DNA of 64,000 bases, taken from a virus. Lineage: Duplodnaviria; Heunggongvirae; Uroviricota; Caudoviricetes. The position numbers and the translations under genes are program-made. Location: the IMG/VR virus record IMGVR_UViG_3300033075_001920; one strand, written 5' to 3'. The notes under the pieces were generated by a model, which made no database searches, was not told the DNA's origin, and saw only the letters and a program-made list of their open reading frames with translations. This document shows, piece after piece, positions 51,116 through 64,000 of this stretch (position 1 is its first letter; the number at the start of each line of letters is the position of its first letter).

Positions 51116-52156
51116 TTAAATTTCTCCCCCTTTTTCGAATTTAGATATAGCCAGATTGGTTTGTTCTATAAGGGCATTGCTCTGAGCGAGGTAGTCTTTT
51201 TTACTGATAATTTTATCTCTGAGCAGTCTTTCCAATCTGTCGAGTTGTTTTTCCTGACGGTCCATAATAGCCTGAATATTTGCAGCTCTTTCTGAGCCGG
51301 ATATTTTACCCGGTTTCGGAGCAGGAGGTGGTACCGGTGGCGCTGGGGGTTGCTTACCTACTTTTACTTTAACTTCTGGGCGCTTACGCTTACGCTTCTC
51401 TTTTTTAGATAATTCCTCTTTGCGCCTCTTTTCAAGTTCTTTTTGCCTTTCAATGACATCCTTCCTTCTTTCTTTCCTGATTTCCGGGCTTGGCTGGGGA
51501 AGTTCTATTTCGGATTCTTCAAACGTCTGTGTGGGCGGGATGGGCTCACCATTGGTATCAACTAGGGTAAACTGGATAAAATAACTACTGGCTTTACCAT
51601 CATCCTGCTTTCCTTTTCGAATAACAACAGATCCAACCCACTCAGGGCCGGATTTGTTTTCAATATCCATCCTCAGATTTTCAACAATCTGATTGAGCCC
51701 GGAAGAAAAGTATTCGTATTTAAATCCTCCATTGGGCATGTATAGGCTCAGCATGCCCGTGGTACCATATTGGTCGCCGGCATTACATTCAAAACGAATA
51801 TTAAGCGGAGTGACCATAGCTGCAAAGTCCGTGGTAAGAAAGTCATCAATTTCCCACCAGGGGATACCGGTGAGGGATGCGATGTCTAATTGCAGTGGAT
51901 TGAAGTATCGTTCAGCTTTAACTTCTTTATCTCCAAATTCGAGATCGAAGGCTGTTTTCCGGATATCCTTTACTTTAACCTTTCTAAAATTCTGTCCTTT
52001 ATAGGAGAGATAAGTTTCATGAATTAAGGCTTTTTCCTGTTCAGGCGTTAATTCAAGTTTATTGGATTTTAGTTCTTTTAGTACACTTCTTTTGACCTTC
52101 TGATAGAGCCGAGAGGAAGCTTTTATCTTTTGAGATTTAGACTTTGATCTGGTCAT
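51116..52156 (-). CDS. basic/coiled-coil protein, first gene of the leftward early unit
   Basis: 346 aa with a K/R-rich N-terminus, a central beta-rich domain, a K/E-rich coil and a PPAPPVPPPAPKPG tract. Confidence 0.5.
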   Translation of the reverse strand: MTRSKSKSQKIKASSRLYQKVKRSVLKELKSNKLELTPEQEKALIHETYLSYKGQNFRKVKVKDIRKTAFDLEFGDKEVKAERYFNPLQLDIASLTGIPWWEIDDFLTTDFAAMVTPLNIRFECNAGDQYGTTGMLSLYMPNGGFKYEYFSSGLNQIVENLRMDIENKSGPEWVGSVVIRKGKQDDGKASSYFIQFTLVDTNGEPIPPTQTFEESEIELPQPSPEIRKERRKDVIERQKELEKRRKEELSKKEKRKRKRPEVKVKVGKQPPAPPVPPPAPKPGKISGSERAANIQAIMDRQEKQLDRLERLLRDKIISKKDYLAQSNALIEQTNLAISKFEKGGEI

Positions 52157-52173
52157 AAAGTAAAGGTGGGATG

Positions 52174-52181
52174 CAAATGTA
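52174..52181 (-). promoter_or_regulatory. Bacteroidota-type -7 promoter box (TACATTTG on - strand)
   Basis: + strand CAAATGTA is the reverse complement of TAnnTTTG, 17 nt upstream of the start at 52156. No palindrome is adjacent. Confidence 0.4.
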
Positions 52182-52367
52182 TTATAAAAATTATTATTTC
52201 AAAATATTAATAGTTATTGTAATTGCAAGTCATTGCAGGAGTAAGGAGAAAAAACTATTTATGTCAAATATTATAAATAATTATTCACATTAACGAATTA
52301 ATATTTGCACAGATTAAATTTAATGTATTTATTTGTGAACTTTTCATTAAAAAAGTAATTGGTAAAG

Positions 52368-52400
52368 CAGGGACTTCTTCGGGAGCCCCTGTTTTATTTT
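52368..52400 (+). terminator. orphan terminator-like hairpin with C(UUCG)G tetraloop
   Basis: CAGGGACTTC/TTCG/GGGAGCCCCTG forms a ~9-bp stem with one mismatch, followed by TTTTATTTT. No + strand ORF lies upstream. Confidence 0.45.
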
Positions 52401-52414
52401 ATCGCAATGTATTG

Positions 52415-52422
52415 TATATTTG
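52415..52422 (+). promoter_or_regulatory. Bacteroidota-type -7 promoter box (TATATTTG)
   Basis: TAnnTTTG match 5 nt upstream of the GTG start at 52428. Confidence 0.4.
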
Positions 52423-52427
52423 CCTAA

Positions 52428-53114
52428 GTGAAGTTTAAAACCGAATATATTTTATTTGTACTTGGCGGATTGTTTTCCATAATTCTATTAACCAGCTCTA
52501 AGGCAAAAGGCAAAAGGATTAATCCAAAGGGTATGACCGTCGCGTTTATAGGTGATAGTCAAATGGCAAATTTCACAGCATCCGGATGGCAAAATCAGAT
52601 GATTAGGGAATACGGAATGAAATTATTGCCGGTACCCATGAACAATGGAACAGGGGCTTCAAAAAACAGCAATCTGGCACAGGTTGGTAAAACTACCACT
52701 TGGATGAAGAATATACTTTCTAAATTCTATAGTACCTGGCTTTTCCGGCCGGATATACTATTTATATACGGAGGAGGTAATGATATATCCAATGGAATCT
52801 CTCCAGAGTCAGTAGTAAAGAACACTCAGGACATGGTGGATCTTGCCAGAAAATATGGAACAAAACATATTTATGTTATTCCAGGATATCGGAGCAGTAA
52901 AGTATCTTTAAAGGCAAAAGCAATCTCAGAATCCGATGCTCAATTACGGGATTCTTATAAACAGATGTTAACAACCCAAATTAAAGGGGCAACAGTTCTG
53001 CCAATATGGGAACAAGCCGATTCAACTTATTCGAGCGATGGTTTACATATATCCGATCAGGCAAAGCTCAAACAGTTTAGCGATTTTATTTCTAAAGCAA
53101 TATTTGTCAAATGA
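52428..53114 (+). CDS. membrane-anchored SGNH/GDSL hydrolase (esterase)
   Basis: N-terminal helix YILFVLGGLFSIILLT. FIGDSQ (block I), IYGGGNDI (block III) and SSDGLHIS (block V, DxxH). Confidence 0.65.
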   Translation: MKFKTEYILFVLGGLFSIILLTSSKAKGKRINPKGMTVAFIGDSQMANFTASGWQNQMIREYGMKLLPVPMNNGTGASKNSNLAQVGKTTTWMKNILSKFYSTWLFRPDILFIYGGGNDISNGISPESVVKNTQDMVDLARKYGTKHIYVIPGYRSSKVSLKAKAISESDAQLRDSYKQMLTTQIKGATVLPIWEQADSTYSSDGLHISDQAKLKQFSDFISKAIFVK

Positions 53115-53758
53115 GAATAGACAGGAATATACGTATAGCAATGGGACTTGGCATACTGGCCGGTGCACTTCTGAGTATTAAAGTTGGTCGGGAGGTATAT
53201 GTAAAAACTGTTATCTCTGATAAGATGTTTTCTGACTCTGCAAAGTTGCTAGGTATTGACGAAGCTTTCCTTAGAGCCATAGCGGAAAAGGAGGGTGGAG
53301 GAAAAGGTTTTTATATCAATGGAAAACCTATAGTAAGACTGGAAAATCATATTTTAGAAAAATATTACCTGAGTAAGGGTAAAACTATTGATGCAGATAA
53401 GCTGTACGGAAGTAACAAATCCGGAATGAGTGAATATTCTCGCTTTGTAAGAGCATACAATGATGATCCGGAAGCTGCCATCTATGCAACTTCATTTGGT
53501 GCATTCCAAGTGATGGGATTTAATGCTATTCCAATTGGATATAAATCTTTGTATGAATTTTATAACAAGATGCACCAGTCTGCCGATAATCAATTCGAAG
53601 CAGTGGTTCGCTTTATAAAGAAGAATAATCTGACACCATATATTAAGAATCGGGATTATAACGGTTTTGCAAAAAAATACAATGGTTCTGTTTCATATGC
53701 GCAAGGTCCGAATGGAATTGCAGCTTTACATAAAAAGTGGCTTTCTAAAACCACGTAA
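53111..53758 (+). CDS. N-acetylmuramidase (DUF3380-type endolysin) with N-terminal signal-anchor
   Basis: SFGAFQVMGFN...GY.SLYEF...ADNQFEAVVRFI...DYNGFAKKYNG matches the DUF3380 muramidase family. The N-terminus IRIAMGLGILAGALLSI is Gly/Ala-rich and SAR-like. Confidence 0.7.
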   Translation: MRIDRNIRIAMGLGILAGALLSIKVGREVYVKTVISDKMFSDSAKLLGIDEAFLRAIAEKEGGGKGFYINGKPIVRLENHILEKYYLSKGKTIDADKLYGSNKSGMSEYSRFVRAYNDDPEAAIYATSFGAFQVMGFNAIPIGYKSLYEFYNKMHQSADNQFEAVVRFIKKNNLTPYIKNRDYNGFAKKYNGSVSYAQGPNGIAALHKKWLSKTT

Positions 53759-53837
53759 ATAAAAACAAAACAAGATAAAATAAAAATTAAATGCTCTGAA
53801 AAACAGCATTTTAAAACTATTTCACAAAAAATATGTC

Positions 53838-53855
53838 GTTATTTTATAAAATAAC
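53838..53855. promoter_or_regulatory. 18-bp palindromic operator GTTATTTT-AT-AAAATAAC (copy 3 of 3)
   Basis: Fully self-complementary 18-mer, 12 nt upstream of the -7 box at 53868. Confidence 0.65.
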
Positions 53856-53867
53856 AAAAAAAGGAAT

Positions 53868-53875
53868 TATGTTTG
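53868..53875 (+). promoter_or_regulatory. Bacteroidota-type -7 promoter box (TATGTTTG)
   Basis: TAnnTTTG match 33 nt upstream of the ATG at 53909. Confidence 0.4.
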
Positions 53876-53908
53876 CTGTACAATTACTAACAATTACAAA
53901 GAAAAGTT

Positions 53909-54508
53909 ATGACTACAACCGCAAAACCATCTCAGTATGCTTCCGTTGATTTGAAATACAACATTGAATTAAAAAATGTAAAAATATTTGTACCCGGAAG
54001 CCAAGAAACAATCAACTTCGTAGCCGATATTCATATCAATGGAAAACATGCAGGTTACGCTAATAATGAAGGTCAGGGAGGTCCAACTTCTGTTCAATCA
54101 AAAGATCCACAAAGCAGAGAAGTGTTAAATCAAGTAGAGCAATACTTTGGAACACTTCCTAAAATGCAGTATCAAGGTATGAAAACAGAACTTACCTTTC
54201 AACCTACATTAGATGGCTACATAGATGAAATTATCAATGACCTTTTTAATGAAAAGGAAAGATCAAAGTATGAAAAAAAACTTCAGAAGGATTGCGAAGT
54301 GGGTATTTGTTTTGGGTCGGAAAATCACTATGCAATGGCGTACTGGAATGACCCAAGGAATACGCGTAAAAAAATCGCATTAGCTCAAATGCTTACCATG
54401 CCAAAAGGTAAAGAAACCATTGTGGCTAGAATAGCTGAAATACGCGCTACTTTGGAAGAAGGAGAAAGAATTTTAAACACCAATCTTCCATCTGAAATAC
54501 TTGCTTAA
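53909..54508 (+). CDS. hypothetical protein
   Basis: 199-aa ORF, the first gene after operator copy 3. Confidence 0.5.
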   Translation: MTTTAKPSQYASVDLKYNIELKNVKIFVPGSQETINFVADIHINGKHAGYANNEGQGGPTSVQSKDPQSREVLNQVEQYFGTLPKMQYQGMKTELTFQPTLDGYIDEIINDLFNEKERSKYEKKLQKDCEVGICFGSENHYAMAYWNDPRNTRKKIALAQMLTMPKGKETIVARIAEIRATLEEGERILNTNLPSEILA

Positions 54509-54722
54509 AATGGAAATAAAAGTAAGAATGGTACTCATGTCGCATCTAAGTGATTTATCACTAAAAGCTTCTATGCAGCAAAATGAATATTCAAAAGACA
54601 TATTGGAGCATATTGAGTTCTGCAAGTTTTTGATTCTCGAACACACGGATACAGACAAAGAGATTAATCCGGATACCGAATACCAAAGATTCTTAGAATT
54701 AATAAATAAACGTAAAGGATAG
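54501..54722 (+). CDS. hypothetical protein
   Basis: 73-aa ORF. Confidence 0.4.
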   Translation: MLKMEIKVRMVLMSHLSDLSLKASMQQNEYSKDILEHIEFCKFLILEHTDTDKEINPDTEYQRFLELINKRKG

Positions 54723-54724
54723 TT

Positions 54725-55042
54725 ATGAATACTGCAGACAATTTCGCCTTCAATTTTTTATGTAAAAGAAATGTGCTTTCTGATACTCATGATCAGAGTG
54801 ATTACGTTTTTTTGCTTATGGAATTTGAAAGAATCCACGGAGCCGAAGGGCTTAAGAAACTGGCTGGTTTCTATTGCTTTGTGATAGACCATAAAAAGGA
54901 TGCAAAAGCTCAGATAAGAGCGCTCCAAGAGGTATTTTATCACGATTTAATGGGTGCATCTGAAAAGGGCTTTTTGCCGCGTTCGGACGACTATTTGGAA
55001 TATTGGAACATTGAACTTGAAAAACACCAACTAGTTAACTAA
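54725..55042 (+). CDS. hypothetical protein
   Basis: 105-aa ORF. Confidence 0.45.
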   Translation: MNTADNFAFNFLCKRNVLSDTHDQSDYVFLLMEFERIHGAEGLKKLAGFYCFVIDHKKDAKAQIRALQEVFYHDLMGASEKGFLPRSDDYLEYWNIELEKHQLVN

Positions 55043-55047
55043 ATACC

Positions 55048-55413
55048 ATGAACACAATTGCAATAGGAGCAAGCCTTTCTGTCGATGATGCAAAGATATT
55101 GATGCAAAGCATTAAGACCAATATTGACCAATGGAATTCAGGTAGGATTCCTACTTCAGTTTCTTACATAGACTGGGGTAGTAAAAAAAGAGGCCAAGGG
55201 CGTCGATCCGGTAGCACTATTCTAGGTTCTATGTCTGCTGCTCGCTATGGAATCGTAAAGTATGTTGGCGTAGACTTTAGAAAATATAAAGCAGATTGGA
55301 ATGGAGAAATAATGAAACTGCTTTCATATGATGGTTCTCGGATGAGTCGGTATTACAAAGCTCGGGAATTTGGCTGCAATCAGATTGAGGCAAGACTTTA
55401 CGCCATAATATAA
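55048..55413 (+). CDS. hypothetical protein
   Basis: 121-aa ORF. Confidence 0.45.
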   Translation: MNTIAIGASLSVDDAKILMQSIKTNIDQWNSGRIPTSVSYIDWGSKKRGQGRRSGSTILGSMSAARYGIVKYVGVDFRKYKADWNGEIMKLLSYDGSRMSRYYKAREFGCNQIEARLYAII

Positions 55414-55419
55414 CACTGT

Positions 55420-55704
55420 ATGAATAAAATCGAATTATTAAGCCAAGGCAAACCGATAATAACATCAGAGAAAGGGAATTCTATGTCCCCGAGAATACTA
55501 TCCGGACAAAAACATGAATTAACTCCATGTACACTGGATGATATTATTGTGAATGATATCGTATACTGTAAAGTGCATGGTCGGTTTTATACCCATCTTG
55601 TTAAAGCCAAAGATCCGCTAAAAGGAGTATTGATTTCCAACATGAAAGGCAGAATTAATGGATGGACAAAAAATGTATATGGCAAGGTAACAAAAGTACT
55701 ATAA
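55420..55704 (+). CDS. S24 (LexA/signal-peptidase-like) peptidase-fold mini-protein
   Basis: EKGNSMSPRILSGQ resembles the G-[DN]-S-M-x-P Ser motif and a later LVKAK supplies a candidate Lys. At 94 aa it has no DNA-binding domain. Confidence 0.35.
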   Translation: MNKIELLSQGKPIITSEKGNSMSPRILSGQKHELTPCTLDDIIVNDIVYCKVHGRFYTHLVKAKDPLKGVLISNMKGRINGWTKNVYGKVTKVL

Positions 55705-56222
55705 TGGCAAAAGTAAAAACATATCTGTTTGAAAATATGCATTTAGCTTCCAGTCAAACTATTGAGTTTGTAAAAAGTATCGATCATGAATACGTAGAAA
55801 TTGATACTGAAACAGGAGAATATAGGAGGGAGCGTGATTTTTATACTATGCAGTTACTTATTAATCCGTCTATAGAAAATATAGTCAGCTGCTCCGATTT
55901 TCTTAATATTATGGGACATAAAGCAGAATACAGTTTTCATCGGAGAGATGGTGAGAATAGATACCTTCAAATAGAGCATTTTGCATGGTTAATACGCATT
56001 GCTCTTAGAATAAGAGAAGAAAATAGGTCAAAACACTTAACCATTCATCTTAATTATTTTGGAACTGATTTTTTGCAAGACCTCAAGGATGAAGTATTCG
56101 GAGAAAATACAAAAACTCATTTAATGCTAATTTTAAGACAACAAACAAATGTTACTTTCAAAATTTACAGTGAATATAAATTAGTGAAGACCCTTACAAA
56201 AGAAGAAGACCTTGAACTATAA
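55704..56222 (+). CDS. hypothetical protein
   Basis: The ATG at 55704 (MAKVKTYLF) overlaps the previous TAA. The track start at 55662 overlaps by 43 nt. Confidence 0.45.
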   Translation: MAKVKTYLFENMHLASSQTIEFVKSIDHEYVEIDTETGEYRRERDFYTMQLLINPSIENIVSCSDFLNIMGHKAEYSFHRRDGENRYLQIEHFAWLIRIALRIREENRSKHLTIHLNYFGTDFLQDLKDEVFGENTKTHLMLILRQQTNVTFKIYSEYKLVKTLTKEEDLEL

Positions 56223-56422
56223 TGGCAAAAAAACTAAAAGACTTATCAAGCTATACAAAGCCACAGAACTGCACCGATATAAACGATGCTACTTTGGGGC
56301 TATTAGAACTCACAAACTTCGTTAGGAACGCAAAAAACCCGCCAAAAACAGCATACATTCGAATTAATAAACTTAATCAAAAGATTCAACTATGGAACAA
56401 GAAATTCAACCAAATGTCTTAA
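56222..56422 (+). CDS. hypothetical protein
   Basis: 66-aa ORF. Confidence 0.4.
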   Translation: MAKKLKDLSSYTKPQNCTDINDATLGLLELTNFVRNAKNPPKTAYIRINKLNQKIQLWNKKFNQMS

Positions 56423-56730
56423 TTAAAGCTCAGGTAATGCACTTCCGCAAACCAAAGGGGCAGAATAGCCCAATTTGGCAGAAGTCCGGCTTTAAGGTAT
56501 TTCTATTAACCATCAACCCTGATTACATAGGAAGTCAGGCAATACTTGCAGTAAAGGCTATTGAAGATGTTTTAGAAGATGCAGGCAATCCAAACACTAA
56601 GTTTGTCTACCACGAGCATGAATTCCTTACACATGAAAGCCATTTCTTAAATCCTGATCTGTTTGAAAAACACTTTCAGGAGCGCTTTAAAGCTTATCGC
56701 GAAAAAAAGACACAATCACAAATCAGCTAA
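56392..56730 (+). CDS. hypothetical protein
   Basis: 112-aa ORF. The true start may be the internal MHFRKPKG. Confidence 0.4.
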   Translation: MEQEIQPNVLIKAQVMHFRKPKGQNSPIWQKSGFKVFLLTINPDYIGSQAILAVKAIEDVLEDAGNPNTKFVYHEHEFLTHESHFLNPDLFEKHFQERFKAYREKKTQSQIS

Positions 56731-57420
56731 ATGAATACCAACGATCAACTACGCCTGTTTGGCGAACCAACAACACCGGCCACTGATACAAGAGTACAAA
56801 AGATTGATATCAGCGTATTATCAGCTCATGACATGCTGGGTATGCTGCTTAAAAAGCTAAAACAACCAGGCAGTGTTGATGCGCCTTTGGATGCAATTTT
56901 ACAAGCAGCTCAGGATATGTTGGACTTTGTGCCCAAAGAGCCGGCTCCGGTTACTTTAAGGGATGCCAGAGAAGAAGTCTTTTCTATGCGCACTCAGGGC
57001 ATCAAATGTCCTTGCTGCGATCAGTTTGCCAAGGTATACCGGCGCAATTTGAATTCAAGTATGGCTTCCGGGTTAATCCGTTTTTATATGGCCACTCAGG
57101 ATATCAATAAATTTCATCATGTGCCTACAGTGTTTACCAGAATGAAGATGAACTTTATGAATACCGAATTTTCAAAACTTAGGTACTGGGGACTGGTTGA
57201 GGAGCAGACAAGTGATGATGTTCAGGAAAAGAAAACTTCCGGATACTGGAGAGTTACCGAGAAAGGCCGCGATTTTGCCTTGGCTATGATTACGGTACCT
57301 AAATACATTTACCTTTACGATTCTCAGATTTGTGAAAACTTTTCAGACCCTACCCAGATTGATATCAATCAAGCTTTGGGCTCGAGATTCAACTATCAGG
57401 AATTAATGAGGGCAATTTAA
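56731..57420 (+). CDS. zinc-ribbon plus winged-helix-like putative DNA-binding protein
   Basis: CPCCDQ...YRRNLNSSMASGLIRF...LRYWGLVEE...GYWRVTEKGRDFA. Lies immediately upstream of a PP-loop protein. Confidence 0.4.
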   Translation: MNTNDQLRLFGEPTTPATDTRVQKIDISVLSAHDMLGMLLKKLKQPGSVDAPLDAILQAAQDMLDFVPKEPAPVTLRDAREEVFSMRTQGIKCPCCDQFAKVYRRNLNSSMASGLIRFYMATQDINKFHHVPTVFTRMKMNFMNTEFSKLRYWGLVEEQTSDDVQEKKTSGYWRVTEKGRDFALAMITVPKYIYLYDSQICENFSDPTQIDINQALGSRFNYQELMRAI

Positions 57421-57423
57421 TCT

Positions 57424-58350
57424 ATGACAGAAACCAAGCCAATAGCGCTCACAGTTGTATCGTTCGGTGCCGGTCAGGACACAATCTATTTTGTGCACAG
57501 ACTTTTAAACGACCAGACTTTCTACGATAGACACGTAAAGGGCGATCTTGTTATTGTTGGCTCGGATACCGGCAATGAGCACCCGCATACTTACCAAGCC
57601 ATTCATCATATAAAAGAATTATGCAATGGCCGGTTTGGATTTTTCTGGCTTACTCCTGACATGGGCTTTCATCCTATTACCTGGCAGAGCCTTACATATC
57701 AATATAAATTGAACAGCAGATGCGGCTCAGCTGCATTTCCTCAGACCTGCACAGACAATTTAAAGGTCAAAGTGGTAGATAATTTTGTCGAATGGTATAT
57801 TGGCAGGATGTATCTAAACATTGAACTTCCTCAATTTGTTAACCGCAAATATGTAGGTAGTAATAAGAAAAACTACCATCAATTCTATGAGAATCATGGT
57901 AAGATAAGGCTTATTTTAGGCTTTGCCGATCAAGAGGAGAGCCGGACAAAGAACGGTAATAAGTTTGATCCTGTTTGGAAAAAAAAGGTAATAGAAAGAT
58001 ATTATCCTCTTATTGAAGACAAAACAGACCGTCAGCAGGCTATTGATTACAATGAAGCCAATATTGAAATGAAAATATTCCCGAGCAATTGTATGATTTG
58101 TTTCTATTCATCCGATCAGGAAATACTTTGGCTTTACCGGAACTATCCACAGGTATTCTATGAGTGGGTGGATATCGAAAAGAAAAAGCTCGAAAAAAGT
58201 GCTGACAAAGAAAAGAATTATGGGGTATATGGGAAAATTACCCTGCAGCAGAAATTAGAAAAGGCTGAGAAACTTTATGGGCATTGGTCCGACGATCAGC
58301 TCACTGAATATAAATACTCCCACGGACATTGTATAAAATCAAGATATTGA
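57424..58350 (+). CDS. PAPS reductase-like (PP-loop ATPase fold) protein with degenerate P-loop
   Basis: VVSFGAGQDTIYF sits in place of SGGKDS. Also VGSDTGNEHPHTY (DTG.E.P.T) and QTCTDNLKVKVV (WCT..LK-like). Confidence 0.5.
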   Translation: MTETKPIALTVVSFGAGQDTIYFVHRLLNDQTFYDRHVKGDLVIVGSDTGNEHPHTYQAIHHIKELCNGRFGFFWLTPDMGFHPITWQSLTYQYKLNSRCGSAAFPQTCTDNLKVKVVDNFVEWYIGRMYLNIELPQFVNRKYVGSNKKNYHQFYENHGKIRLILGFADQEESRTKNGNKFDPVWKKKVIERYYPLIEDKTDRQQAIDYNEANIEMKIFPSNCMICFYSSDQEILWLYRNYPQVFYEWVDIEKKKLEKSADKEKNYGVYGKITLQQKLEKAEKLYGHWSDDQLTEYKYSHGHCIKSRY

Positions 58351-58352
58351 AT

Positions 58353-58841
58353 ATGATAAAAATTTTACCGGAACAACAGATGCAGGTATACGCCAGATAT
58401 TGGGGCTGTAAATATTTACTTACAATAAATATTGAAGGCAATCCGGTTGTTCAAACTTTAAGAAGTAGATTCATGTTAGATTTAGAACCTGATTTAGAAA
58501 ACAGACGAGATCTTATTTTAGTCAGAAAAATCGAAAATATAACAGATGAGCATGTATGGGATCTTCTAGCATTGCTTCATGAAAATGAAGAAACAAAAAG
58601 AAAAGACGAAGCTTTGCATTATGGAATAAAATCAGCAATTATTAATGGCTTTCCTAATGCGTGGAAATGGAATTACTGGTCAGCGGTCAAAATCTATACA
58701 TTTCTTATTTCAAAAGGCTACAATATGCCAACATTTATTGGATTTAACGACGTCAAAAGCACTCCGCTGGATTTAGGGATGGCTATTGATGTAGATGAAT
58801 TAAATAAAACTCTTCACCCTCAATACAGAATAACATTATGA
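58353..58841 (+). CDS. hypothetical protein (paralog family with C-terminal ..GMAIDVDEL)
   Basis: The ATG at 58353 follows the previous TGA. The C-terminus FLISKGYNMPTFIGF...LDLGMAIDVDEL resembles ORF 37032. Confidence 0.45.
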   Translation: MIKILPEQQMQVYARYWGCKYLLTINIEGNPVVQTLRSRFMLDLEPDLENRRDLILVRKIENITDEHVWDLLALLHENEETKRKDEALHYGIKSAIINGFPNAWKWNYWSAVKIYTFLISKGYNMPTFIGFNDVKSTPLDLGMAIDVDELNKTLHPQYRITL

Positions 58842-59188
58842 ACTTGGAAGAATTTAATGAAAAACTAAAAAAGCTGATTGAAGAATCCGGTGAGGGGTTT
58901 ACTTTTGGCTTTATAATCTCCTGTATACAGGGCTTACCTGGTAGAGATGCAAAGGGAAATAAGGCAGAGCAGATTCTGCTGTTCAATATCAGACATTCAG
59001 AGCTTTACTATAGTTTACGCAACATAATGGACAATAACGATCAGATGGCTAAGGTAATTTTGGATGTAGCCTTAGGCTATATGGCTGAAAAGAATATCGA
59101 GCCGGTCCTTCCTAATAATAATGGGGAGGGTGAAATTGGCTTGCCGATTATGATGATGCCGGGAAAGAAGGATAAATATGTTAATTAG
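58838..59188 (+). CDS. hypothetical protein
   Basis: 116-aa ORF. Confidence 0.45.
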   Translation: MNLEEFNEKLKKLIEESGEGFTFGFIISCIQGLPGRDAKGNKAEQILLFNIRHSELYYSLRNIMDNNDQMAKVILDVALGYMAEKNIEPVLPNNNGEGEIGLPIMMMPGKKDKYVN

Positions 59189-59196
59189 CAATAATT

Positions 59197-59460
59197 ATGG
59201 CAAAAACATTTAATAAAGAACAAACCGGCAATACTCAGGCACAACCAGATATCATTCATATTGTCGATTATAAGGGGCAAAAGGAAACAAATATCATATG
59301 GGATAGAACCAGGGATGTTGTATACAATGGAGACCAATTACAAATGAATACATATTCATGTTCAAGTTGTGAAAAAGTTTACTATTTCGAACAAATAAAA
59401 CATAGTTTCTGTCCTTTTTGTGGCATAAAATTCAAATACGAAACCGATGTTTCAGTATAA
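59197..59460 (+). CDS. zinc-ribbon protein
   Basis: 87 aa with CSSC...CPFCG. Confidence 0.5.
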   Translation: MAKTFNKEQTGNTQAQPDIIHIVDYKGQKETNIIWDRTRDVVYNGDQLQMNTYSCSSCEKVYYFEQIKHSFCPFCGIKFKYETDVSV

Positions 59461-59508
59461 AATCGATAACTAAATAATTCAAATCAAAAATAAAAAATCA
59501 AATTAATC

Positions 59509-60342
59509 ATGAACAATACCACAACAATCGCAATCATTATCATTGTCTGTCTTCTTATTATCATTTATTGGAAGAAGATAGTAATCAAAATTCTGTCTTT
59601 CTACACAGCGACAGCCATCACTTTGCACACCGCAAAACTCAATGCAAAGAAAGAAAAAAAACCGATTCCTACGCTTACACCTCTTGACCATTTTGCTAAC
59701 CATGCACCGGCTTGTCCGCACTGGTTTGAACCAAAAATGGCAAGAAAGAGTCCAATTATACGCAAGCATCCCAATATGGGCTCCATTGGTCCAGTTACTC
59801 TCCCCAGCGGTGAAATATTGTCGGAAGATGAGGCTCGCAAATATTTAGATGTTCATTATTCCGAAGATGGTGAATGGATCCAAAATCCAGAAGTGGTAAA
59901 TTTGGATTTATGGGGGAAGTACATTACTCTACCGGAAGGATTTAAGGAGTACATTGACAATTATGTTGCCGAATGGGATAAGGAATGTAAGGCTCATCAG
60001 AAATGGTCAAACGATTATGAACTTCAAAGGAATGTCCAGTGGAGATATTATTTTGCCTCTGCAATGGAAGTTCAATCAAAGAAACAGACTACCCAAAATG
60101 ATTGGTTAATCTTACTTGGGGCATTCTCTTCTCTTTTATCAACCATATCTGCAAAAGACGTAATTGAAAAGTATACTAAGAAAGCCGAATCACATGAATC
60201 TCCAATTGAAGAAAATGAAAAAGCCGAATCAAACGCCAAGCTCGAACCATTACCAGATGAAGTTACTGAGCCTGAAAATACTCTATCCCCTACAGATCAG
60301 AAGCCGGAAGGTATAGACGATAAGGCTTTGGAAAATCAATAG
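59509..60342 (+). CDS. N-terminally anchored membrane protein
   Basis: 277 aa with helix TIAIIIIVCLLIIIYW and an acidic C-terminal tail. Confidence 0.5.
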   Translation: MNNTTTIAIIIIVCLLIIIYWKKIVIKILSFYTATAITLHTAKLNAKKEKKPIPTLTPLDHFANHAPACPHWFEPKMARKSPIIRKHPNMGSIGPVTLPSGEILSEDEARKYLDVHYSEDGEWIQNPEVVNLDLWGKYITLPEGFKEYIDNYVAEWDKECKAHQKWSNDYELQRNVQWRYYFASAMEVQSKKQTTQNDWLILLGAFSSLLSTISAKDVIEKYTKKAESHESPIEENEKAESNAKLEPLPDEVTEPENTLSPTDQKPEGIDDKALENQ

Positions 60343-60377
60343 GAAAATTTGACGTTACAAACTATATAAAAAGTATC

Positions 60378-60719
60378 ATGACTGATCACGAATACCTCGT
60401 AAAGAGCACCATTTTCCGGATATACAACCCAACCACAGTTTTTGTTAAATATGGTCGCGGAATCTGCGATTGTAAAGGCTTTATCATATTGGAAGGAAAG
60501 CATAGGCTATATCTTGATATAAATGGCGGGGAATGGGTGGATATTGAAGAAGTTAAATTAATATTAAGGTCTGGCAGATTTACAAATACGATAGAAACCC
60601 ATTGGAATCTGATTAATCAGGGATATTCAATTCCTGTGAGTGTTCCGGGTGAAAATGGGGCAATCCAGATGGTAAACCCTATTGATATTCCTGATTTAGT
60701 AGTTTTAAAAACAGAATGA
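60378..60719 (+). CDS. hypothetical protein
   Basis: 113-aa ORF. Confidence 0.45.
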   Translation: MTDHEYLVKSTIFRIYNPTTVFVKYGRGICDCKGFIILEGKHRLYLDINGGEWVDIEEVKLILRSGRFTNTIETHWNLINQGYSIPVSVPGENGAIQMVNPIDIPDLVVLKTE

Positions 60720-61348
60720 ATCGAAATTATCAATTTAAAGTAGGTCAAAAGGTCAAGATGCTGGATGAAAGCATATTGGAAGAATGGTGGATGCATGGAG
60801 AAGTTGAAGGTATTTGTTCTGATGCTGTTTTCATCCTTTTTGAAGGGGAAACTGAGTCAACCAGGGTAGAGCCAGCCAACTTCAATTTGATCAGGTTCTT
60901 AAATTGTATTACAATAGGCAAAATAGGTATGTCTACTTATTACCAACCATTTGGATTTGTGGCAAGTTCTGATGTTACTATTCTAAAACCTAACTTTCAA
61001 ATGAGTGTTTATACTGCAATGTTTATAGTATCAATATTGAGTATGGATAAATATAAATGGAGTTATGGACGACAAATACGATTAAATGATTCACAAAAAT
61101 TGTCTGTGATGTTTCCTGTAAATTCTGATGGAGAACCAGATTGGAATTTTATGGACTATTACATAAAAAGTCTACCATATAGTAAAAATTTAGATTCTAT
61201 AAAGCATATTAGTAACGCTCCATTGTCTGATGAACAACTTGTTTCAAAATATGAATCAGGGGGAATTGAATTAGCTACCGCGATGGAACCTATGTTACAA
61301 ACACCAAGCAATTCATCAACACTAAAAAAATCAAAGAAAAAGACCTAA
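60716..61348 (+). CDS. type I S-subunit TRD-like (specificity-domain-like) protein with N-terminal SH3/Tudor-like extension
   Basis: GKIGMSTYYQPFGFVASSDVTILKP...YTAMFIVSIL...KWSYGRQIRLNDSQKLSVMFPVNSDGEPDWNFMDYYIKSL resembles a half HsdS target-recognition domain. Weak call made by eye. Confidence 0.3.
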   Translation: MNRNYQFKVGQKVKMLDESILEEWWMHGEVEGICSDAVFILFEGETESTRVEPANFNLIRFLNCITIGKIGMSTYYQPFGFVASSDVTILKPNFQMSVYTAMFIVSILSMDKYKWSYGRQIRLNDSQKLSVMFPVNSDGEPDWNFMDYYIKSLPYSKNLDSIKHISNAPLSDEQLVSKYESGGIELATAMEPMLQTPSNSSTLKKSKKKT

Positions 61349-61398
61349 AATTTAGGTTTATTTGGTACACTAAACTATATAATTGCCTAAATAAAAAT

Positions 61399-62217
61399 AT
61401 GATTATACATGGATATTCTGAAAAAGAATTACTAAAGATAGCTGATAGTAGTATTGATTTAATAATAACATCACCACCATACGCGGATCGTCGAAAAAAA
61501 ACATATGGTGGTATATCAGAGGATGAATATGTAGAATGGTTTAAGCCTATTGCTATTCAAATAAAAAGAATTTTAAAACCCTCAGGTAGTTTTTTTTTAA
61601 ATATAAAGCCACACACCAACAATGGAGAGCGAAGTTTATATGTCTTTGATTTAATACTCATGCTCACCAGGGAATTAAAATTTAGATTTTGCGATGAATT
61701 TTGTTGGACAAAATTGGGCGTTCCAGGTAGATTTAAAGGGCGTTTCAAAAATGCCTTTGAACCTATATATCATTTTACATTAGAATCTGGATATAAACAC
61801 AATCCATATAGTGTTGCTGAAAAAGCAAAAGAGACTTCAATAAAAAGATATAAAAGAAAAGCATGCGGGGAAAGTAAAAATGGTAGCGGCTTTGCTGGTA
61901 TGCGAAAAGAAATTACTAGCCATCTTGCACTACCCAGCAATCATTTACATATTCCACAAAAATCTAATCAATATACCATTGAAAAAAAACATTCAGCGGT
62001 TTTTCCAGTTGCACTATCTAGTTTTTTTATAAAAGCCTTTAGTGATGAAGGTGATACAATTTTAGATTGTTTCGGAGGAAGTGGAACGGTTGCTATATCG
62101 TGTATTGAAACAAATCGAAACTATATTATAATTGAAAAAGAGAAGGCGAATGTAAAATTGATTAACAAGCGAATAAAAATGAAAATTGGGTTGGATAAAA
62201 ATAATAACGATATTTGA
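61399..62217 (+). CDS. DNA methyltransferase, N4-cytosine/N6-adenine (beta class, SPPY)
   Basis: LIITSPPYA (motif IV), HSAVFPVAL and ILDCFGGSGT (motif I). Confidence 0.8.
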   Translation: MIIHGYSEKELLKIADSSIDLIITSPPYADRRKKTYGGISEDEYVEWFKPIAIQIKRILKPSGSFFLNIKPHTNNGERSLYVFDLILMLTRELKFRFCDEFCWTKLGVPGRFKGRFKNAFEPIYHFTLESGYKHNPYSVAEKAKETSIKRYKRKACGESKNGSGFAGMRKEITSHLALPSNHLHIPQKSNQYTIEKKHSAVFPVALSSFFIKAFSDEGDTILDCFGGSGTVAISCIETNRNYIIIEKEKANVKLINKRIKMKIGLDKNNNDI

Positions 62218-62224
62218 ATTATAC

Positions 62225-62880
62225 ATGAACTTACTCGAATTATTCGCTGGTAGCCGATCTATTGGTAAGATTGCGGAAAAACACAATATAAATGTTTTCA
62301 GTTCGGATATTGAACCATTTACTGATATTGATTATGTTGTAAATATTCTTAATTTTGATTGCTCCAAAGTGCCATTTATTCCCGATATAATATGGGCATC
62401 CCCCCCCTGCACTTTCTTCTCTGTGGCATCAATTGGGCGGCATTGGCACATCAATAATACCCCGAAGACAGAAAACGCTGTCTTGGGCGTTAAAATCGTT
62501 CAGAAGACAAGAGATATTATTGAATACTTTTTAAAATTGAATCCTGATCTTATTTGGTTTATGGAAAATCCGCTTGGCAAATTAAGAAAATTACCGGTTG
62601 TGGAAGGTTTGCCTCGGGCGACAATTACTTATTGCAGCTATGGAGATACCCGCATGAAACCAACGGATATTTGGTCCAACCATATTTAATTTATGATTCA
62701 AAGTTCAGATTGAATGGATGGAAGCCAATTGAAAGGTGCCTGCCATCAACTCAAACATGTCATCATGAAAAGGCGACTAGGGGAAGCAAGACTGGAACGC
62801 AAGGTCTGAAAGGATCATATCTTCGAAGTAAAATACCAGAAAAATTGTGTGAGGCAATTATTTCGTCTACATTGGCATGA
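62225..62880 (+). pseudogene. small DNA (cytosine-5) methyltransferase, frameshifted
   Basis: LELFAGSRSIG (I), ASPPCTFFS (IV, PC) and FMENP (VI) in one frame stop at TAA 62687-62689. The conserved tail (RLNGWKP..C..TCHHEKATRGSKTGTQGL...IPEKLC) continues in the -1 frame. The break is at a short T-run (62685-62687). Confidence 0.7.
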
Positions 62881-62899
62881 CTATTGGACATAATAATGT

Positions 62900-63865
62900 A
62901 TGACTGGAATGGAGTCTTATGATAAATACATTGTTGCCTTCTCTGGTGGCAAGGATTCAACGGTATGTTTCTTACATCTGCTGGATCTCGGAATTCCAAA
63001 AGAAAAGATTGAATTATGGCACTGTCTGATTGATGGTAAAGGACCGGTCTATATGGATTGGGAAGTTACCGAGGACTATTGCAGAAAATTTGCGGAAGCT
63101 TTCGGGGTTAAAATTTACTTTGCATGGAAGGAAGGTGGTTTCAAAAAGGAAATGTACAGAGAAAATGCTCTGACAGCTCCAACCACATTTGAAATTCCGG
63201 AAGGCGGAACTAAGACTATTGGAGGCGTCCGTGGCAAACTCACCACAAGGCGTAAATTTCCGCAGGTAAGCCCCGATCTGAATGTGAGATGGTGTAGTGC
63301 CTATCTGAAAATAGATGTGTGCTCTGCTGCCATCAGAAATCAGTCAAGGTTTGACGGATTAAAGACAATTGTGATATCCGGTGAGCGCGGGGAAGAATCT
63401 GCTGCCCGTGCAAAATATGCTGAATTTGAAGTGGATAGGGCGGATGGAAGAAATGGCAGAGGAAAGCGGCACGTCGATCGCGGCAGGTTGATAAAGGATT
63501 GGACCGAGGCTCAGGTATGGGATATCATATCAAAATACAAAGTTGTGGTGCATCCATGTTACTATATGGGATGGTCAAGGTGCAGTTGTAAGTTCTGCAT
63601 CTTTGGCAATGCTGACCAATTTAAATCAGCCTACACGGTTTCTCCGACTCAGGGGGAACTGCTTATATCAGCCGAGGAAGAATTCGGTGTCACAATGAAG
63701 CGGAAAGGTTCTATAAGGGATTTGGTGAGTGCTGGCAATGATTACCCGGGCATATCATCAAGCACAATCGAACTAGCCACCAATCACATCTATACCGGCC
63801 AGATATTTACTCAGCAATGGAATCTTCCAATGGGAGCATTCGGAAATGGATGTGGACCATCTTGA
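62900..63865 (+). CDS. PAPS reductase family (PP-loop ATPase) protein
   Basis: IVAFSGGKDST (SGGxDS PP-loop), VRWCSAYLKIDV and a C-terminal Cys cluster (CYYMGWSRCSCKFCIF). Confidence 0.7.
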   Translation: MTGMESYDKYIVAFSGGKDSTVCFLHLLDLGIPKEKIELWHCLIDGKGPVYMDWEVTEDYCRKFAEAFGVKIYFAWKEGGFKKEMYRENALTAPTTFEIPEGGTKTIGGVRGKLTTRRKFPQVSPDLNVRWCSAYLKIDVCSAAIRNQSRFDGLKTIVISGERGEESAARAKYAEFEVDRADGRNGRGKRHVDRGRLIKDWTEAQVWDIISKYKVVVHPCYYMGWSRCSCKFCIFGNADQFKSAYTVSPTQGELLISAEEEFGVTMKRKGSIRDLVSAGNDYPGISSSTIELATNHIYTGQIFTQQWNLPMGAFGNGCGPS

Positions 63866-63893
63866 TTTGAAATCTCGAAAAGTTTCTGGACCG

Positions 63894-63918
63894 GCCGCCT
63901 GATGAGGGCGGTTTTTTT
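63894..63918 (+). terminator. rho-independent terminator
   Basis: CCGCC (63895-63899) pairs with GGCGG (63907-63911), extendable by G-U pairs, followed by T7. Confidence 0.6.
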
Positions 63919-63946
63919 ATGCCGGGATGAAATGGTTTCCCGGCAT
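63919..63946. other. perfect 9-bp stem hairpin at the right edge of the AT-rich element
   Basis: ATGCCGGGA (63919-63927) and TCCCGGCAT (63938-63946) with a 10-nt loop. Sequence to the right becomes GC-rich. Confidence 0.55.
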
Positions 63947-64000
63947 TCAAAGTGTCCGTCAGGCAGCGAAGAAGTGAGAGAGCATCGCGCGCACGCCCTG

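What the first reader, a model, noticed from the sequence alone, without database searches (positions are those of the whole stretch)
56731..63865. Two divergent PAPS-reductase-like PP-loop proteins, one with a degenerate P-loop, flank a methyltransferase/specificity module
ORF 62900-63865 has a canonical SGGKDST PP-loop, RWCSAYLK and a C-terminal Cys cluster. ORF 57424-58350 keeps the fold landmarks (DTGNEHPHTY, QTCTDNLK) but its P-loop reads SFGAGQDT. It is preceded by a zinc-ribbon plus winged-helix-like protein (56731-57420). Between the two PP-loop proteins lie an S-subunit-like TRD protein, an SPPY methyltransferase and a C5 methyltransferase. The PP-loop/PAPS-reductase fold is used by DndC (phosphorothioation), by IbrA-like proteins and by base-modifying ATP pyrophosphatases. 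Two copies next to DNA-targeting proteins suggest an ATP-dependent DNA or nucleotide modification pathway that I cannot assign to a described system.
Basis: partly seen in the sequence, partly recalled or inferred. Interest (0 to 1): 0.6.

Follow-up and report, generated by a model that had tools for sequence, protein, structure and literature searches.

The report
Paired phage PAPS-reductase-like DNA-modification enzymes
A phage, probably of Bacteroidota, carries two very different enzymes of the PAPS-reductase/DndC fold among several DNA methyltransferases. These two kinds of enzyme turn out to be a recurring gene pair that probably modifies phage DNA to escape host restriction, but the chemistry is unknown.

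Summary
The genes are real and both fold assignments hold.

**The two enzymes**
- ORF 62900-63865 ("B") is a PF01507 protein with a canonical SGGKDS loop.
- ORF 57424-58350 ("A") has no Pfam hit, but a confident model (pLDDT 93) has the PP-loop fold.
- A's odd loop is not decay. S-x-G-x-G-Q-[DE]-[ST] is the conserved signature of a small, unnamed family, mostly from Bacteroidota phages and prophages.
- Both proteins keep the same cysteine pattern: one Cys before LK, a CxxC, and a C-terminal tail Cys.

**What the surroundings show**
- The genes between A and B, and the upstream winged-helix protein, are not conserved partners.
- The pairing is conserved. In 26 of about 79 family-A loci a canonical SGGKDS PAPS-like gene lies within 10 kb, always on the same strand. 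Sixteen are within 1 kb and eight within 50 bp, and several of these are close B homologues.
- The only other recurrent neighbours are DNA methyltransferases.
- In relatives, the A domain ends "polyvalent" proteins, joined to the ART-PolyVal ADP-ribosyltransferase domain.

**Assignment**
Neither protein is CysH, DndC, SspD, BrxP, IbrA, QueC or TilS.

**Reading**
This is most likely an anti-restriction DNA-modification pair, probably transferring sulfur. It is a new variant of a known but uncharacterised kind.

The parts
56731..57420 (+). Winged-helix DNA-binding protein (phrog_2693) with a CPCC motif. It ends 3 nt before the start of A. Probably a phage early-region regulator, not a dedicated partner of the PP-loop enzymes.
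57424..58350 (+). Family A. A divergent PAPS-reductase/PP-loop enzyme with the loop SFGAGQDT, DTGNEHPHTY, QTC109TDNLK, an EES-R motif, PSNC223xxC226 and a C-terminal SHGHC303.
58329..60719 (+). Five tightly packed ORFs with no recognisable family (58329-58841, 58838-59188, 59197-59460, 59509-60342, 60378-60719). They are absent from the other family-A loci held at that point, so they look like lineage-specific cargo between the two enzymes.
   Evidence: No Pfam hit reaches its cut-off and no PHROG hit beats 1e-3. jackhmmer found no relative in the loci then held.
60716..61348 (+). Small protein with a single TRD-like (target recognition) stretch, immediately upstream of the N6/N4 methyltransferase.
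   Evidence: PADLOC Specificity_II at 3.5e-8 over residues 62-153, and phrog_12160 at 6e-11. No Pfam or PDB sequence match.
61399..62217 (+). Beta-class N6-adenine/N4-cytosine DNA methyltransferase with an SPPY motif.
   Evidence: PF01555 at 1.3e-41. phrog_67 at 2.6e-48.
62186..62880 (+). Small C5-type DNA methyltransferase (FAGSRS, SPPC, ENP motifs) split into two frames near 62685. Either a pseudogene or a homopolymer sequencing error.
   Evidence: phrog_757 at 1.6e-20 covers only the first 167 of 247 profile positions. Sequence at the join. Intact 242-aa relative L003:9200-9928 lies just upstream of that locus's A gene.
62900..63865 (+). Family B. A canonical SGGKDS PAPS-reductase/DndC-like PP-loop enzyme with invariant C61, C132 (RWCS), C230xxC233 and a tail C318.
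   Evidence: PF01507 at 4.5e-8. phrog_424 at 9e-30. BrxP 9.8e-14 and DndC 8e-10, domain-level only. More than 4000 homologues. Conservation.
63893..63913 (+). Intrinsic-terminator-like hairpin plus T-run. It closes the co-directional gene block that runs from about 52428 to 63865.
   Evidence: It is the stronger of only two + strand terminator-like sites in 52000-64000: 8 pairs, 5 of them G-C, against a 7-pair, 3 G-C site at 55140-55156. Sequence.

Best explanation
A and B are the two halves of a recurrent phage gene pair. One half is a canonical SGGKDS PAPS-reductase/DndC-like ATP pyrophosphatase (B). The other is a member of a distinct, unnamed clade with a GxGQDS loop (A). In this window the pair has been pulled 4.5 kb apart by lineage-specific ORFs and methyltransferase genes. 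All of it lies in one co-directional block that is closed by the terminator after B.

Shown:
- both folds and their motifs;
- conservation of A's variant loop;
- the same cysteine pattern in both proteins;
- the tight, same-strand pairing in about a third of family-A loci;
- the association with DNA methyltransferases;
- the occurrence of the A domain in polyvalent proteins.

Inferred mechanism: each enzyme uses ATP to adenylate an oxygen on DNA, either a backbone phosphate or a base carbonyl. It then replaces that oxygen with sulfur. The sulfur would be carried on an Fe-S cluster or a persulfide held by the Cys/CxxC triad and the mobile C-terminal cysteine, and would come from the host cysteine desulfurase. 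The resulting mark, alongside the phage's several methylations, would protect phage DNA from host restriction. Targets could include phosphorothioate-dependent systems such as BREX type 4, Ssp or Dnd. The upstream winged-helix protein is most likely a regulator and not part of the chemistry.
For: Fold and family
- B passes PF01507.
- A's best viral structural match is a Vibrio phage 'PAPS reductase' (E 3e-9, TM 0.62).
- Divergent family-A members pass the PF01507 cut-off themselves.

Active-site conservation
- A's loop is conserved, as are its DTG, C-LK, EES-R, CxxC and tail-Cys motifs.
- B has the parallel invariant cysteines C132, C230, C233 and C318.
- From established knowledge, this pattern resembles APS reductase and the [4Fe-4S]-dependent thiolases and DndC.

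Pairing
- 26 of about 79 A loci have a canonical partner within 10 kb, all on the same strand. Sixteen are within 1 kb and eight within 50 bp.
- The binomial probability against uniform spacing is 2e-10.
- Close B homologues abut A in L086 (5 bp), L064, L068, L024 and L060.
- In L016 the two adjacent proteins share a near-identical stretch of about 20 residues (KFDKGGIAGLKAMLPFVS), within a longer similar segment just N-terminal of their PP-loop domains.

Context
- Methyltransferases are the only other recurrent neighbours.
- The window holds four more methyltransferase-family genes, two of them DNA methyltransferases.
- The cultured Pseudoalteromonas phage KB12-38 has two PAPS reductases, methyltransferases and a DndB-like gene together.
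- The A domain is fused to ART-PolyVal, DUF3140 and a C5-methylase-like region in polyvalent proteins.

Precedents
- A phage PAPS-Dam fusion, transferred together with an adjacent gene of unknown function, gives escape from Dnd (bioRxiv 10.1101/2021.05.05.442762).
- TdpC alone makes phosphorothioate (PMC12914056 citing An 2025).
- BrxP makes phosphorothioate in Bacteroidota, and BrxP is B's best defence-model hit.
- Family A is mostly found in Bacteroidota.
Against: - There is no biochemical or modification data for either family.
- No DndD/SspC/BrxC-type ATPase, DndE/SspB-type DNA-recognition protein or cysteine desulfurase appears among the matches shown for the neighbours or for the window's ORFs upstream of 56000. 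Published work says phosphorothioation normally needs a P-loop NTPase.
- Two thirds of A loci show no partner within 10 kb. B relatives mostly occur without A: the family has more than 4000 members against about 213 cluster representatives for A. The pairing is therefore facultative.
- In this window the two genes are not adjacent.
- A and B are barely alignable to each other (hhalign probability 25%).
- Fe-S binding and sulfur chemistry are inferred from motif analogy only.
Confidence: 0.5

Rival explanations
1. Two independent anti-restriction genes. A and B do not cooperate. Each is a separate DNA-modifying or anti-defence enzyme, perhaps with its own sequence specificity as the several methyltransferases have. 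They are near each other only because such genes collect in the same variable island.
For: - In the window they are 4.5 kb apart with non-conserved genes between them.
- Most B relatives and two thirds of A loci lack the other gene nearby.
- The partner belongs to at least three different PAPS-like subfamilies.
- Methyltransferases cluster in the same places.
Against: - Eight loci have the two genes within 50 bp or overlapping, and 16 of 26 are within 1 kb.
- No other gene family shows comparable linkage.
- In L016 the two proteins share a common stretch just N-terminal of their PP-loop domains.
Confidence: 0.22
2. Interference with the host's own machinery. One or both proteins mimic the host DndC, SspD or BrxP. 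They would either join the host's ATPase and recognition subunits so that phage DNA gets the host's phosphorothioate mark, or poison that complex.
For: - The phage lacks its own DndD/SspC/BrxC-like partner among the matches shown.
- A phage PAPS domain was linked to escape from Dnd.
- B's best defence-model match is BrxP, and A's is the C-terminal half of SspD.
Against: - The similarity to DndC, SspD and BrxP is only at domain level and far below the family cut-off. For DndC it is 34 bits against 290.
- Both families are strongly conserved at catalytic motifs, which argues for an active enzyme and not a mere decoy.
Confidence: 0.13
3. Adenylation-dependent chemistry that is not sulfur transfer, or a target that is not DNA. 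Examples are amination or amidation of a DNA base (TilS- or GMP-synthase-like), modification of free nucleotides before incorporation, or modification of tRNA.
For: - PP-loop enzymes as a class carry out many O-to-N and O-to-S replacements (established knowledge).
Against: - The conserved Cys/CxxC/tail-Cys pattern in both families is typical of the Fe-S or persulfide branch.
- No glutaminase partner, 7-deazaguanine genes or tRNA genes appear nearby.
- The recurrent neighbours are DNA methyltransferases.
Confidence: 0.1
4. Auxiliary metabolic genes for sulfate assimilation, as the usual 'cysH' virome annotation implies. The proteins would reduce PAPS or APS to sulfite to boost host cysteine supply.
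For: - Pfam and PHROG names.
- An APS kinase gene lies about 1.9 kb from A in L010.
Against: - B scores 15-24 bits against NCBIfam CysH and APS-reductase cut-offs of 154-254, and A scores nothing.
- B has an ATP-type SGGKDS loop, which true PAPS reductases lack (established knowledge).
- Neither protein has the ECG[LI]H end.
- The neighbours are DNA methyltransferases and polyvalent-protein domains, not cys genes.
- The L010 kinase is on the opposite strand of a 134-kb contig and is a single case.
Confidence: 0.03

Closest known systems
Phage-encoded PAPS-reductase-like proteins (PHROG 424 and relatives), including the PAPS-Dam fusion of Vibrio crassostreae phages linked to escape from Dnd (Piel et al. 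2022)
   Same: Same superfamily, and both window proteins match phrog_424. Same habitat: variable, methyltransferase-rich phage regions. Same proposed role in escaping restriction.
   Different: Here there are two separate proteins, not a fusion to Dam. Family A has its own loop signature, no Pfam coverage and no close relative in 50,697 deposited phage records. The A-plus-canonical pairing and the polyvalent-protein fusions turned up in none of the papers searched here.
DndC / SspD / BrxP / TdpC, the sulfur-inserting PAPS-reductase-like enzymes of DNA phosphorothioation systems
   Same: PP-loop fold, an SGGKDS loop in B, cysteine motifs compatible with an Fe-S site, and action on DNA. TdpC shows that one such enzyme can suffice.
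   Different: Scores are far below family cut-offs. For DndC it is 34.4 bits against 290.4. The BrxP and SspD matches cover only part of the domain. There are no DndD/E, SspB/C or BrxC neighbours and no DUF4007 fusion.
Assimilatory APS/PAPS reductase (CysH)
   Different: No ECG[LI]H end, no cys-operon context, and NCBIfam cut-offs missed by a factor of six or more. B has an ATP-type loop.
[4Fe-4S]-dependent tRNA thiolases (TtuA, NcsA/Ncs6, TtcA) and the Ctu1/Ctu2 pair
   Different: Sequence identity is 13-14%. There are no zinc-finger or tRNA-binding domains and no sulfur-carrier genes nearby. The genomic context points to DNA.
Polyvalent proteins of phages and conjugative elements (Iyer et al. 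2017)
   Same: Family-A domains form the C-terminus of 600-1768-aa proteins that contain ART-PolyVal, DUF3140, hemerythrin and C5-methylase-like regions. The L016 and L056 loci place A next to proteins of 1498 and 2920 aa.
   Different: The window's A and B are stand-alone proteins. That paper does not mention a PP-loop or PAPS-reductase module.

Membership tests
PP-loop / adenine-nucleotide alpha-hydrolase superfamily (Pfam PAPS_reduct, PF01507) | Rossmann-like alpha/beta fold of PP-loop ATP pyrophosphatases | tested here: met
PP-loop / adenine-nucleotide alpha-hydrolase superfamily (Pfam PAPS_reduct, PF01507) | Pfam PF01507 score above the gathering cut-off (22.5 bits) | tested here: met
   B scores 33.7 bits. 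The window's A has no hit, but family-A members P0317, P0320 and P0353 score 24.5-30.9 bits.
PP-loop / adenine-nucleotide alpha-hydrolase superfamily (Pfam PAPS_reduct, PF01507) | SGGxDS pyrophosphate-binding loop | tested here: inconclusive
   B has SGGKDS, invariant in its family. A has the conserved variant G-x-G-Q-[DE]-[ST], in which the first Ser is Gly and the second Gly is variable. ATP binding was not tested.
Assimilatory PAPS/APS reductase (CysH) | NCBIfam equivalog score above cut-off (TIGR02057 254, TIGR02055 235, NF002537 154) | tested here: not met
   B scores 15.0, 23.1 and 24.3 bits. A has no match.
Assimilatory PAPS/APS reductase (CysH) | C-terminal ECG[LI]H catalytic motif | tested here: not met
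   A ends SHGHCIKSRY. B ends GNGCGPS, with family consensus ESCGP.
DndC (Dnd phosphorothioation) | TIGR03183 score above 290.4 bits | tested here: not met
   B scores 34.4 bits over residues 124-212 only. A has no match.
DndC (Dnd phosphorothioation) | Operon with dndD (ABC ATPase), dndE and usually dndB/dndA | tested here: not met
   No such families appear among the listed families for neighbours of about 35 A loci or for window ORFs upstream of 56000. No conserved third gene appears in 26 paired loci.
DndC (Dnd phosphorothioation) | [4Fe-4S] cluster on three cysteines, and ATP pyrophosphatase activity | not testable with these tools
   Conserved Cys/CxxC triads are present in both proteins, but metal binding and activity need experiments.
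SspD / BrxP (Ssp and BREX type 4 phosphorothioation) | Full-length match to the family model, and a neighbouring SspB/SspC or BrxC (DUF4007, DUF6079) | tested here: not met
   The PADLOC BrxP match of B covers 212-316 of 779 profile positions (48.5 bits). SspD scores 21.5 bits for B and 23.9 bits for A (residues 186-282). No such neighbours were found.
TdpC (single-gene phosphorothioation) | Sequence similarity to TdpC and linkage to tdpAB | not tested
   No TdpC sequence or model was available in the libraries used. It is known here only from PMC12914056.
IbrA/YbdN-type (DUF3440) with ParB-like IbrB | DUF3440 C-terminal domain and an adjacent ParB-like gene | tested here: not met
   No DUF3440 or ParB Pfam hit for A, B or their window neighbours. 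ParB is not among the listed neighbour families.
QueC / 7-deazaguanine DNA modification | PF06508 match plus DpdA/TGT and QueD/QueE/FolE genes | tested here: not met
TilS (lysidine synthetase) | TIGR02432 score above 93.6 bits, and C-terminal tRNA-binding domains | tested here: not met
   B scores 15.6 bits over the loop region only. The profile search against PDB gives E 0.09 to TilS.
Polyvalent-protein module | Domain recurs fused to hallmark polyvalent domains such as ART-PolyVal in very long phage or plasmid proteins | tested here: met
   Met for family A as a whole. P0297 (1768 aa), P0312, P0303 and P0298 carry ART-PolyVal. P0295 carries a C5-methylase-like region and DUF6929. The window's own copy is stand-alone.
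Type I restriction-modification S subunit (for ORF 60716-61348) | Two TRDs separated by conserved helical regions, next to an HsdM-type methyltransferase | tested here: not met
   There is only one TRD-like stretch, residues 62-153, and no Pfam Methylase_S hit. The adjacent methyltransferase is PF01555, not HsdM.

The most novel reading that the evidence does not exclude
A and B together form a self-contained, phage-borne DNA sulfur-modification pathway. It would be a fifth route to phosphorothioate, or a route to a thio-base, distinct from Dnd, Ssp, BREX-4 and Tdp. The canonical SGGKDS enzyme would adenylate DNA. The GxGQDS enzyme, with its HGHC tail, would deliver or resolve the sulfur. The pathway would need only the host cysteine desulfurase, and in some phages it would be delivered into the cell as part of polyvalent proteins.
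Probability: 0.2. Interest if true: 0.8.

Novelty: new variant of a known kind. Interest (0 to 1): 0.5.

Why it matters
Phage 'PAPS reductases' are very common. In virome studies they are routinely annotated as sulfur-metabolism genes. One genetic experiment ties one of them to escape from a phosphorothioate-based defence, and none has a known reaction.

This locus adds three things. It defines an unnamed clade with its own loop signature. It identifies a recurrent two-enzyme arrangement next to DNA methyltransferases. It links that clade to polyvalent proteins. Together these give a concrete, testable pair of genes for finding out what such enzymes do to DNA.

The work also argues against counting these genes as auxiliary sulfur metabolism.

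Tried and rejected
- Near-identity DNA search of 56000-64000 against deposited phages found nothing.
- Sequence searches of PDB with the family-A profile, the B protein, the B profile, the TRD protein and the split methyltransferase found nothing significant.
- The AlphaFold-database fold library was not available. BFVD and PDB were used instead.
- ORF 56731 as a dedicated partner was rejected.
- The ORFs between A and B as conserved pathway members were rejected.
- The APS kinase near A in L010 as evidence for sulfate metabolism was rejected. It is on the opposite strand and is a single case on a 134-kb contig.
- A fusion of the A and B domains in one protein was not found. No B-type domain occurs in the 146 newly retrieved representatives.
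- Direct hhalign of A against B gave a colinear alignment with only 25% probability. It was used only to map motifs.
- The sigma-70 promoter scan gave no more sites than shuffled sequence, and Bacteroidota promoters are not covered.
- A literature search for IbrA/IbrB returned only unrelated papers.
- Spatial clustering of the cysteines could not be checked, because model coordinates are not exposed.

Full report
**Setting**

The window looks like part of a novel phage. It has no tRNA genes, a G+C content of about 0.34-0.43, few PHROG matches and no DNA match to 50,697 deposited phage records. Protein look-ups place it on a 132,469-bp JGI metagenome contig.

The finding lies at the end of a tightly packed + strand block running from about 52428 to 63865. 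The block begins with a GDSL lipase and a muramidase. It is closed by the stronger of the region's two + strand terminator-like hairpins, at 63893-63913.

**Check of the observation**

B (62900-63865, 321 aa):
- It has SGGKDST, RWCSAYLK and SRCSCKFC.
- It passes Pfam PAPS_reduct at 33.7 bits against a cut-off of 22.5.

A (57424-58350, 308 aa):
- It has SFGAGQDT, DTGNEHPHTY, QTCTDNLK, PSNCMIC and a C-terminal SHGHC.
- It has no Pfam or NCBIfam match.
- It matches phrog_424 'PAPS reductase' at 5.7e-18 and, weakly, the C-terminal half of PADLOC SspD.
- A model built on 88 homologues is confident, with pLDDT 93.2 and pTM 0.90.
- Its best match among predicted viral structures is a Vibrio phage 'PAPS reductase', with E 3e-9 and TM 0.62 over 324 columns.

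The other genes:
- The SPPY methyltransferase is solid (PF01555, 1.3e-41).
- The 'S-subunit-like' protein has a single TRD-like stretch.
- The 'C5 methyltransferase' is split between two frames near a T3 run at about 62685. Only its first part matches a phage methyltransferase family, phrog_757, over profile positions 15-167 of 247. An intact 242-aa relative exists.

**The 'degenerate' loop is a family signature**

- A has only 94 close relatives in 5.8 billion proteins.
- It has 213 cluster representatives at E below 1e-30 in 1.84 billion proteins.
- 92 of the 94 close relatives carry S-x-G-[AG]-G-Q-[DE]-[ST].
- Across the wider family the loop reads S-x-G-x-G-Q-D-S.
- The family also conserves E52 in the DTG motif, C109 and K114, E171 and R174 (an EES-R motif), P-S-N-C223-x-x-C226 and H-G-H-C303.
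- Some divergent members pass the Pfam PF01507 cut-off, so the clade grades into PAPS_reduct.

This is the pattern of an active enzyme under selection, not of a decayed copy.

B belongs to a much larger family of more than 4000 proteins, many from Sphingobacterium, Dyadobacter and other Bacteroidota. Its invariant residues are SGGKD, C61, C132, ER-EES-R, S-C230-x-x-C233-IF and a tail C318.

The two proteins are barely alignable to each other. Even so, they share the same layout: a loop, a Cys before LK, EES-R, CxxC and a cysteine on the C-terminal tail.

From established knowledge, this layout recalls two groups. One is APS reductase, which has a CC...RK motif, a CxxC and a catalytic tail Cys. 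The other is the three-cysteine [4Fe-4S] sites of DndC, TtuA and NcsA.

**What belongs together**

I collected about 79 distinct family-A loci from IMG/VR, GTDB genomes and assemblies.

Not conserved with A:
- The five unassigned ORFs between A and B (58329-60719), the TRD protein and the two ORFs checked upstream of 56731 (55662-56222 and 56392-56730) have no relative in the A loci held at that point.
- The 56731 protein recurs in one of the loci checked.
- Its roughly 155-aa relatives sit in early regions of phage-like contigs without any PAPS-like gene.

Conserved with A:
- 26 loci contain a second PAPS-like gene within 10 kb, nearly always with an SGGKDS loop.
- This partner is always on the same strand as A.
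- Eight partners are within 50 bp or overlapping, and 16 are within 1 kb.
- Against uniform spacing this has a binomial probability of 2e-10.
- The partner comes from at least three subfamilies. It is often a close B homologue, lying 5 bp from A in L086, 34 bp in L064, 184 bp in L068, 481 bp in L024 and 574 bp in L060.

The only other recurrent neighbours are DNA methyltransferases:
- The Pfam census within 2.6 kb of A gives PAPS_reduct 8, C5 DNA_methylase 7 and N6_N4_Mtase 3.
- Clustering of neighbours in the paired loci finds a DUF4942 methylase in four loci, a C5 methylase in three and the small phrog_757 type in two.
- The window itself carries a close relative of that DUF4942 methylase at 43050-44570.
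- It also has another DNA methyltransferase at 31901-32833, plus a TylF-type and a further N6/N4 methyltransferase match.

A cultured phage, Pseudoalteromonas KB12-38, shows the same theme. It has two PAPS reductases, a methyltransferase, a C5 methylase and a DndB-like gene within 9 kb.

**Polyvalent proteins**

- About 15% of the family-A representatives listed are long fusions with A at the C-terminus.
- Four of the first ten examined carry ART-PolyVal. Others carry DUF3140, hemerythrin, a C5-methylase-like region, a GNAT-like region or DUF6929.
- In L016 the adjacent B-type (799 aa) and A-type (490 aa) proteins share a near-identical stretch of about 20 residues, KFDKGGIAGLKAMLPFVS, within a longer similar segment just N-terminal of their PP-loop domains. 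They are followed by a 1498-aa protein.
- In L056, A is followed by a 2920-aa protein.
- Polyvalent proteins are thought to act in conflicts between mobile elements and their hosts (PMC5512222). That paper does not mention a PP-loop or PAPS module.

**Comparison with known systems**

- CysH: excluded by scores, by the absence of the ECG[LI]H end and by context.
- DndC: 34 bits against a cut-off of 290, with no dndBDE genes nearby.
- SspD and BrxP: partial, domain-level matches only, with no SspB/C or BrxC partner.
- IbrA, QueC and TilS: not met.
- PDB: neither family has a sequence-level relative.

Three results from the literature matter here:
- Phage PAPS-reductase homologues are widespread and uncharacterised (PMC11437467).
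- A phage PAPS-Dam fusion, transferred together with an adjacent gene of unknown function, confers escape from Dnd (bioRxiv 10.1101/2021.05.05.442762; cited in PMC13551039).
- Phosphorothioation needs a PAPS-domain protein and usually a P-loop NTPase, yet TdpC alone suffices. BrxP makes phosphorothioate in Bacteroidota (PMC12914056).

Family A is found mainly in Bacteroidota, and B's best defence-model hit is BrxP.

**Interpretation**

The best-supported reading is a facultative two-enzyme PP-loop pair that belongs to the phage's DNA-modification and anti-restriction equipment.

- The fold, the conserved motifs, the pairing, the methyltransferase association and the polyvalent fusions are shown.
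- ATP-dependent adenylation of DNA followed by sulfur insertion is inferred from motif analogy and precedent.
- The choice of target is open. It could be a backbone phosphate or a base, and DNA is favoured over nucleotides or RNA only by context.

The main weaknesses are:
- the lack of any DndD/SspC/BrxC-like ATPase, DNA-recognition subunit or desulfurase nearby;
- the absence of a partner in two thirds of A loci;
- the 4.5-kb separation in this window.

The rivals, in order of weight, are:
1. independent anti-restriction genes collected in one island;
2. hijacking or poisoning of the host's phosphorothioation complex;
3. non-sulfur or non-DNA chemistry;
4. sulfate assimilation, which is largely refuted.

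**Verdict**

The claims of a 'degenerate' loop, a zinc-ribbon partner and a flanked module were not.

The finding is a new variant of a known but uncharacterised kind. It is of moderate interest as it stands. It would be of high interest if the pair proves to be a self-sufficient route to sulfur-modified phage DNA.

Noticed in passing
window 62186-62880 (join near 62680-62690): The small C5-type methyltransferase is split between two frames at the sequence catatttaa. One extra T in the T3 run would restore a single ORF of about 230 aa. This is either a real pseudogene or a homopolymer error.
   Followed up: partly
L016 7044-9443 and 9446-10918: The adjacent B-type and A-type proteins share a near-identical stretch of about 20 residues (KFDKGGIAGLKAMLPFVS), within a longer similar segment just N-terminal of their PP-loop domains. 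Similar F-[AD]-[KD]-GG motifs occur in the N-terminal extensions of P0083, P0086 and P0088. This could be a shared docking, packaging or linker peptide.
   Followed up: partly
proteins P0295, P0297, P0298, P0303, P0312 (relatives of window 57424-58350): The family-A domain forms the C-terminus of 700-1768-aa polyvalent proteins that carry ART-PolyVal, DUF3140, hemerythrin, a C5-methylase-like region and DUF6929/DUF6910. The 2017 polyvalent-protein survey does not mention a PP-loop or PAPS module.
   Followed up: partly
window 31901-32833 (-), 43050-44570 (-), 61399-62217 (+), 62186-62880 (+), plus TylF-type and second N6/N4 matches upstream of 56000: The window encodes at least four DNA methyltransferase genes, plus TylF-type and further N6/N4 matches whose positions were not mapped. 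The DUF4942 methylase at 43050-44570 is a close relative (1.6e-142) of the one that sits next to the A/B genes in L001, L066 and L085.
   Followed up: partly
window 35679-36473 (-): A strong DUF5131 (Gp37/Gp68) protein (Pfam 7e-60). The same family lies two genes downstream of the family-A gene in L044. DUF1643 also appears both in the window and near A in another locus. Their function is unknown, and the repeat may be chance.
   Followed up: no
window 60716-61348 and 61399-62217: A stand-alone protein with a single TRD sits directly upstream of a PF01555 (beta-class) methyltransferase. This is an unusual split of recognition and catalysis for that class.
   Followed up: no
L038 8982-9287, L039 8981-9286, L001 10215-10523: B-family genes in other phages and prophages are followed by a protein of about 101 aa, which has an HTH_3 domain in L039. 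In the window that position is taken by the terminator at 63893-63913. Whether these 101-aa proteins are related to one another was not tested.
   Followed up: no
L041 (Pseudoalteromonas phage KB12-38, MF098558.1 43720-58673): A cultured phage has two PAPS reductases, a methyltransferase, a C5 methylase, a DndB-like protein and a small 'sulfate reductase' ORF within about 9 kb. It is a possible experimental model for this kind of island.
   Followed up: partly
window 52428-53758: A GDSL lipase/acylhydrolase and an N-acetylmuramidase sit at the start of the same + strand block. These look like lysis-type genes, transcribed in the same direction as the modification genes.
   Followed up: no
L076, L079 (Asgard archaeal MAG contigs) and L088, L091 (Halobacteriovorax): Family-A genes also turn up on contigs binned to Thorarchaeota, Borrarchaeum and predatory Halobacteriovorax. 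These may be viral contigs mis-binned into MAGs, or signs of a wider host range.
   Followed up: no
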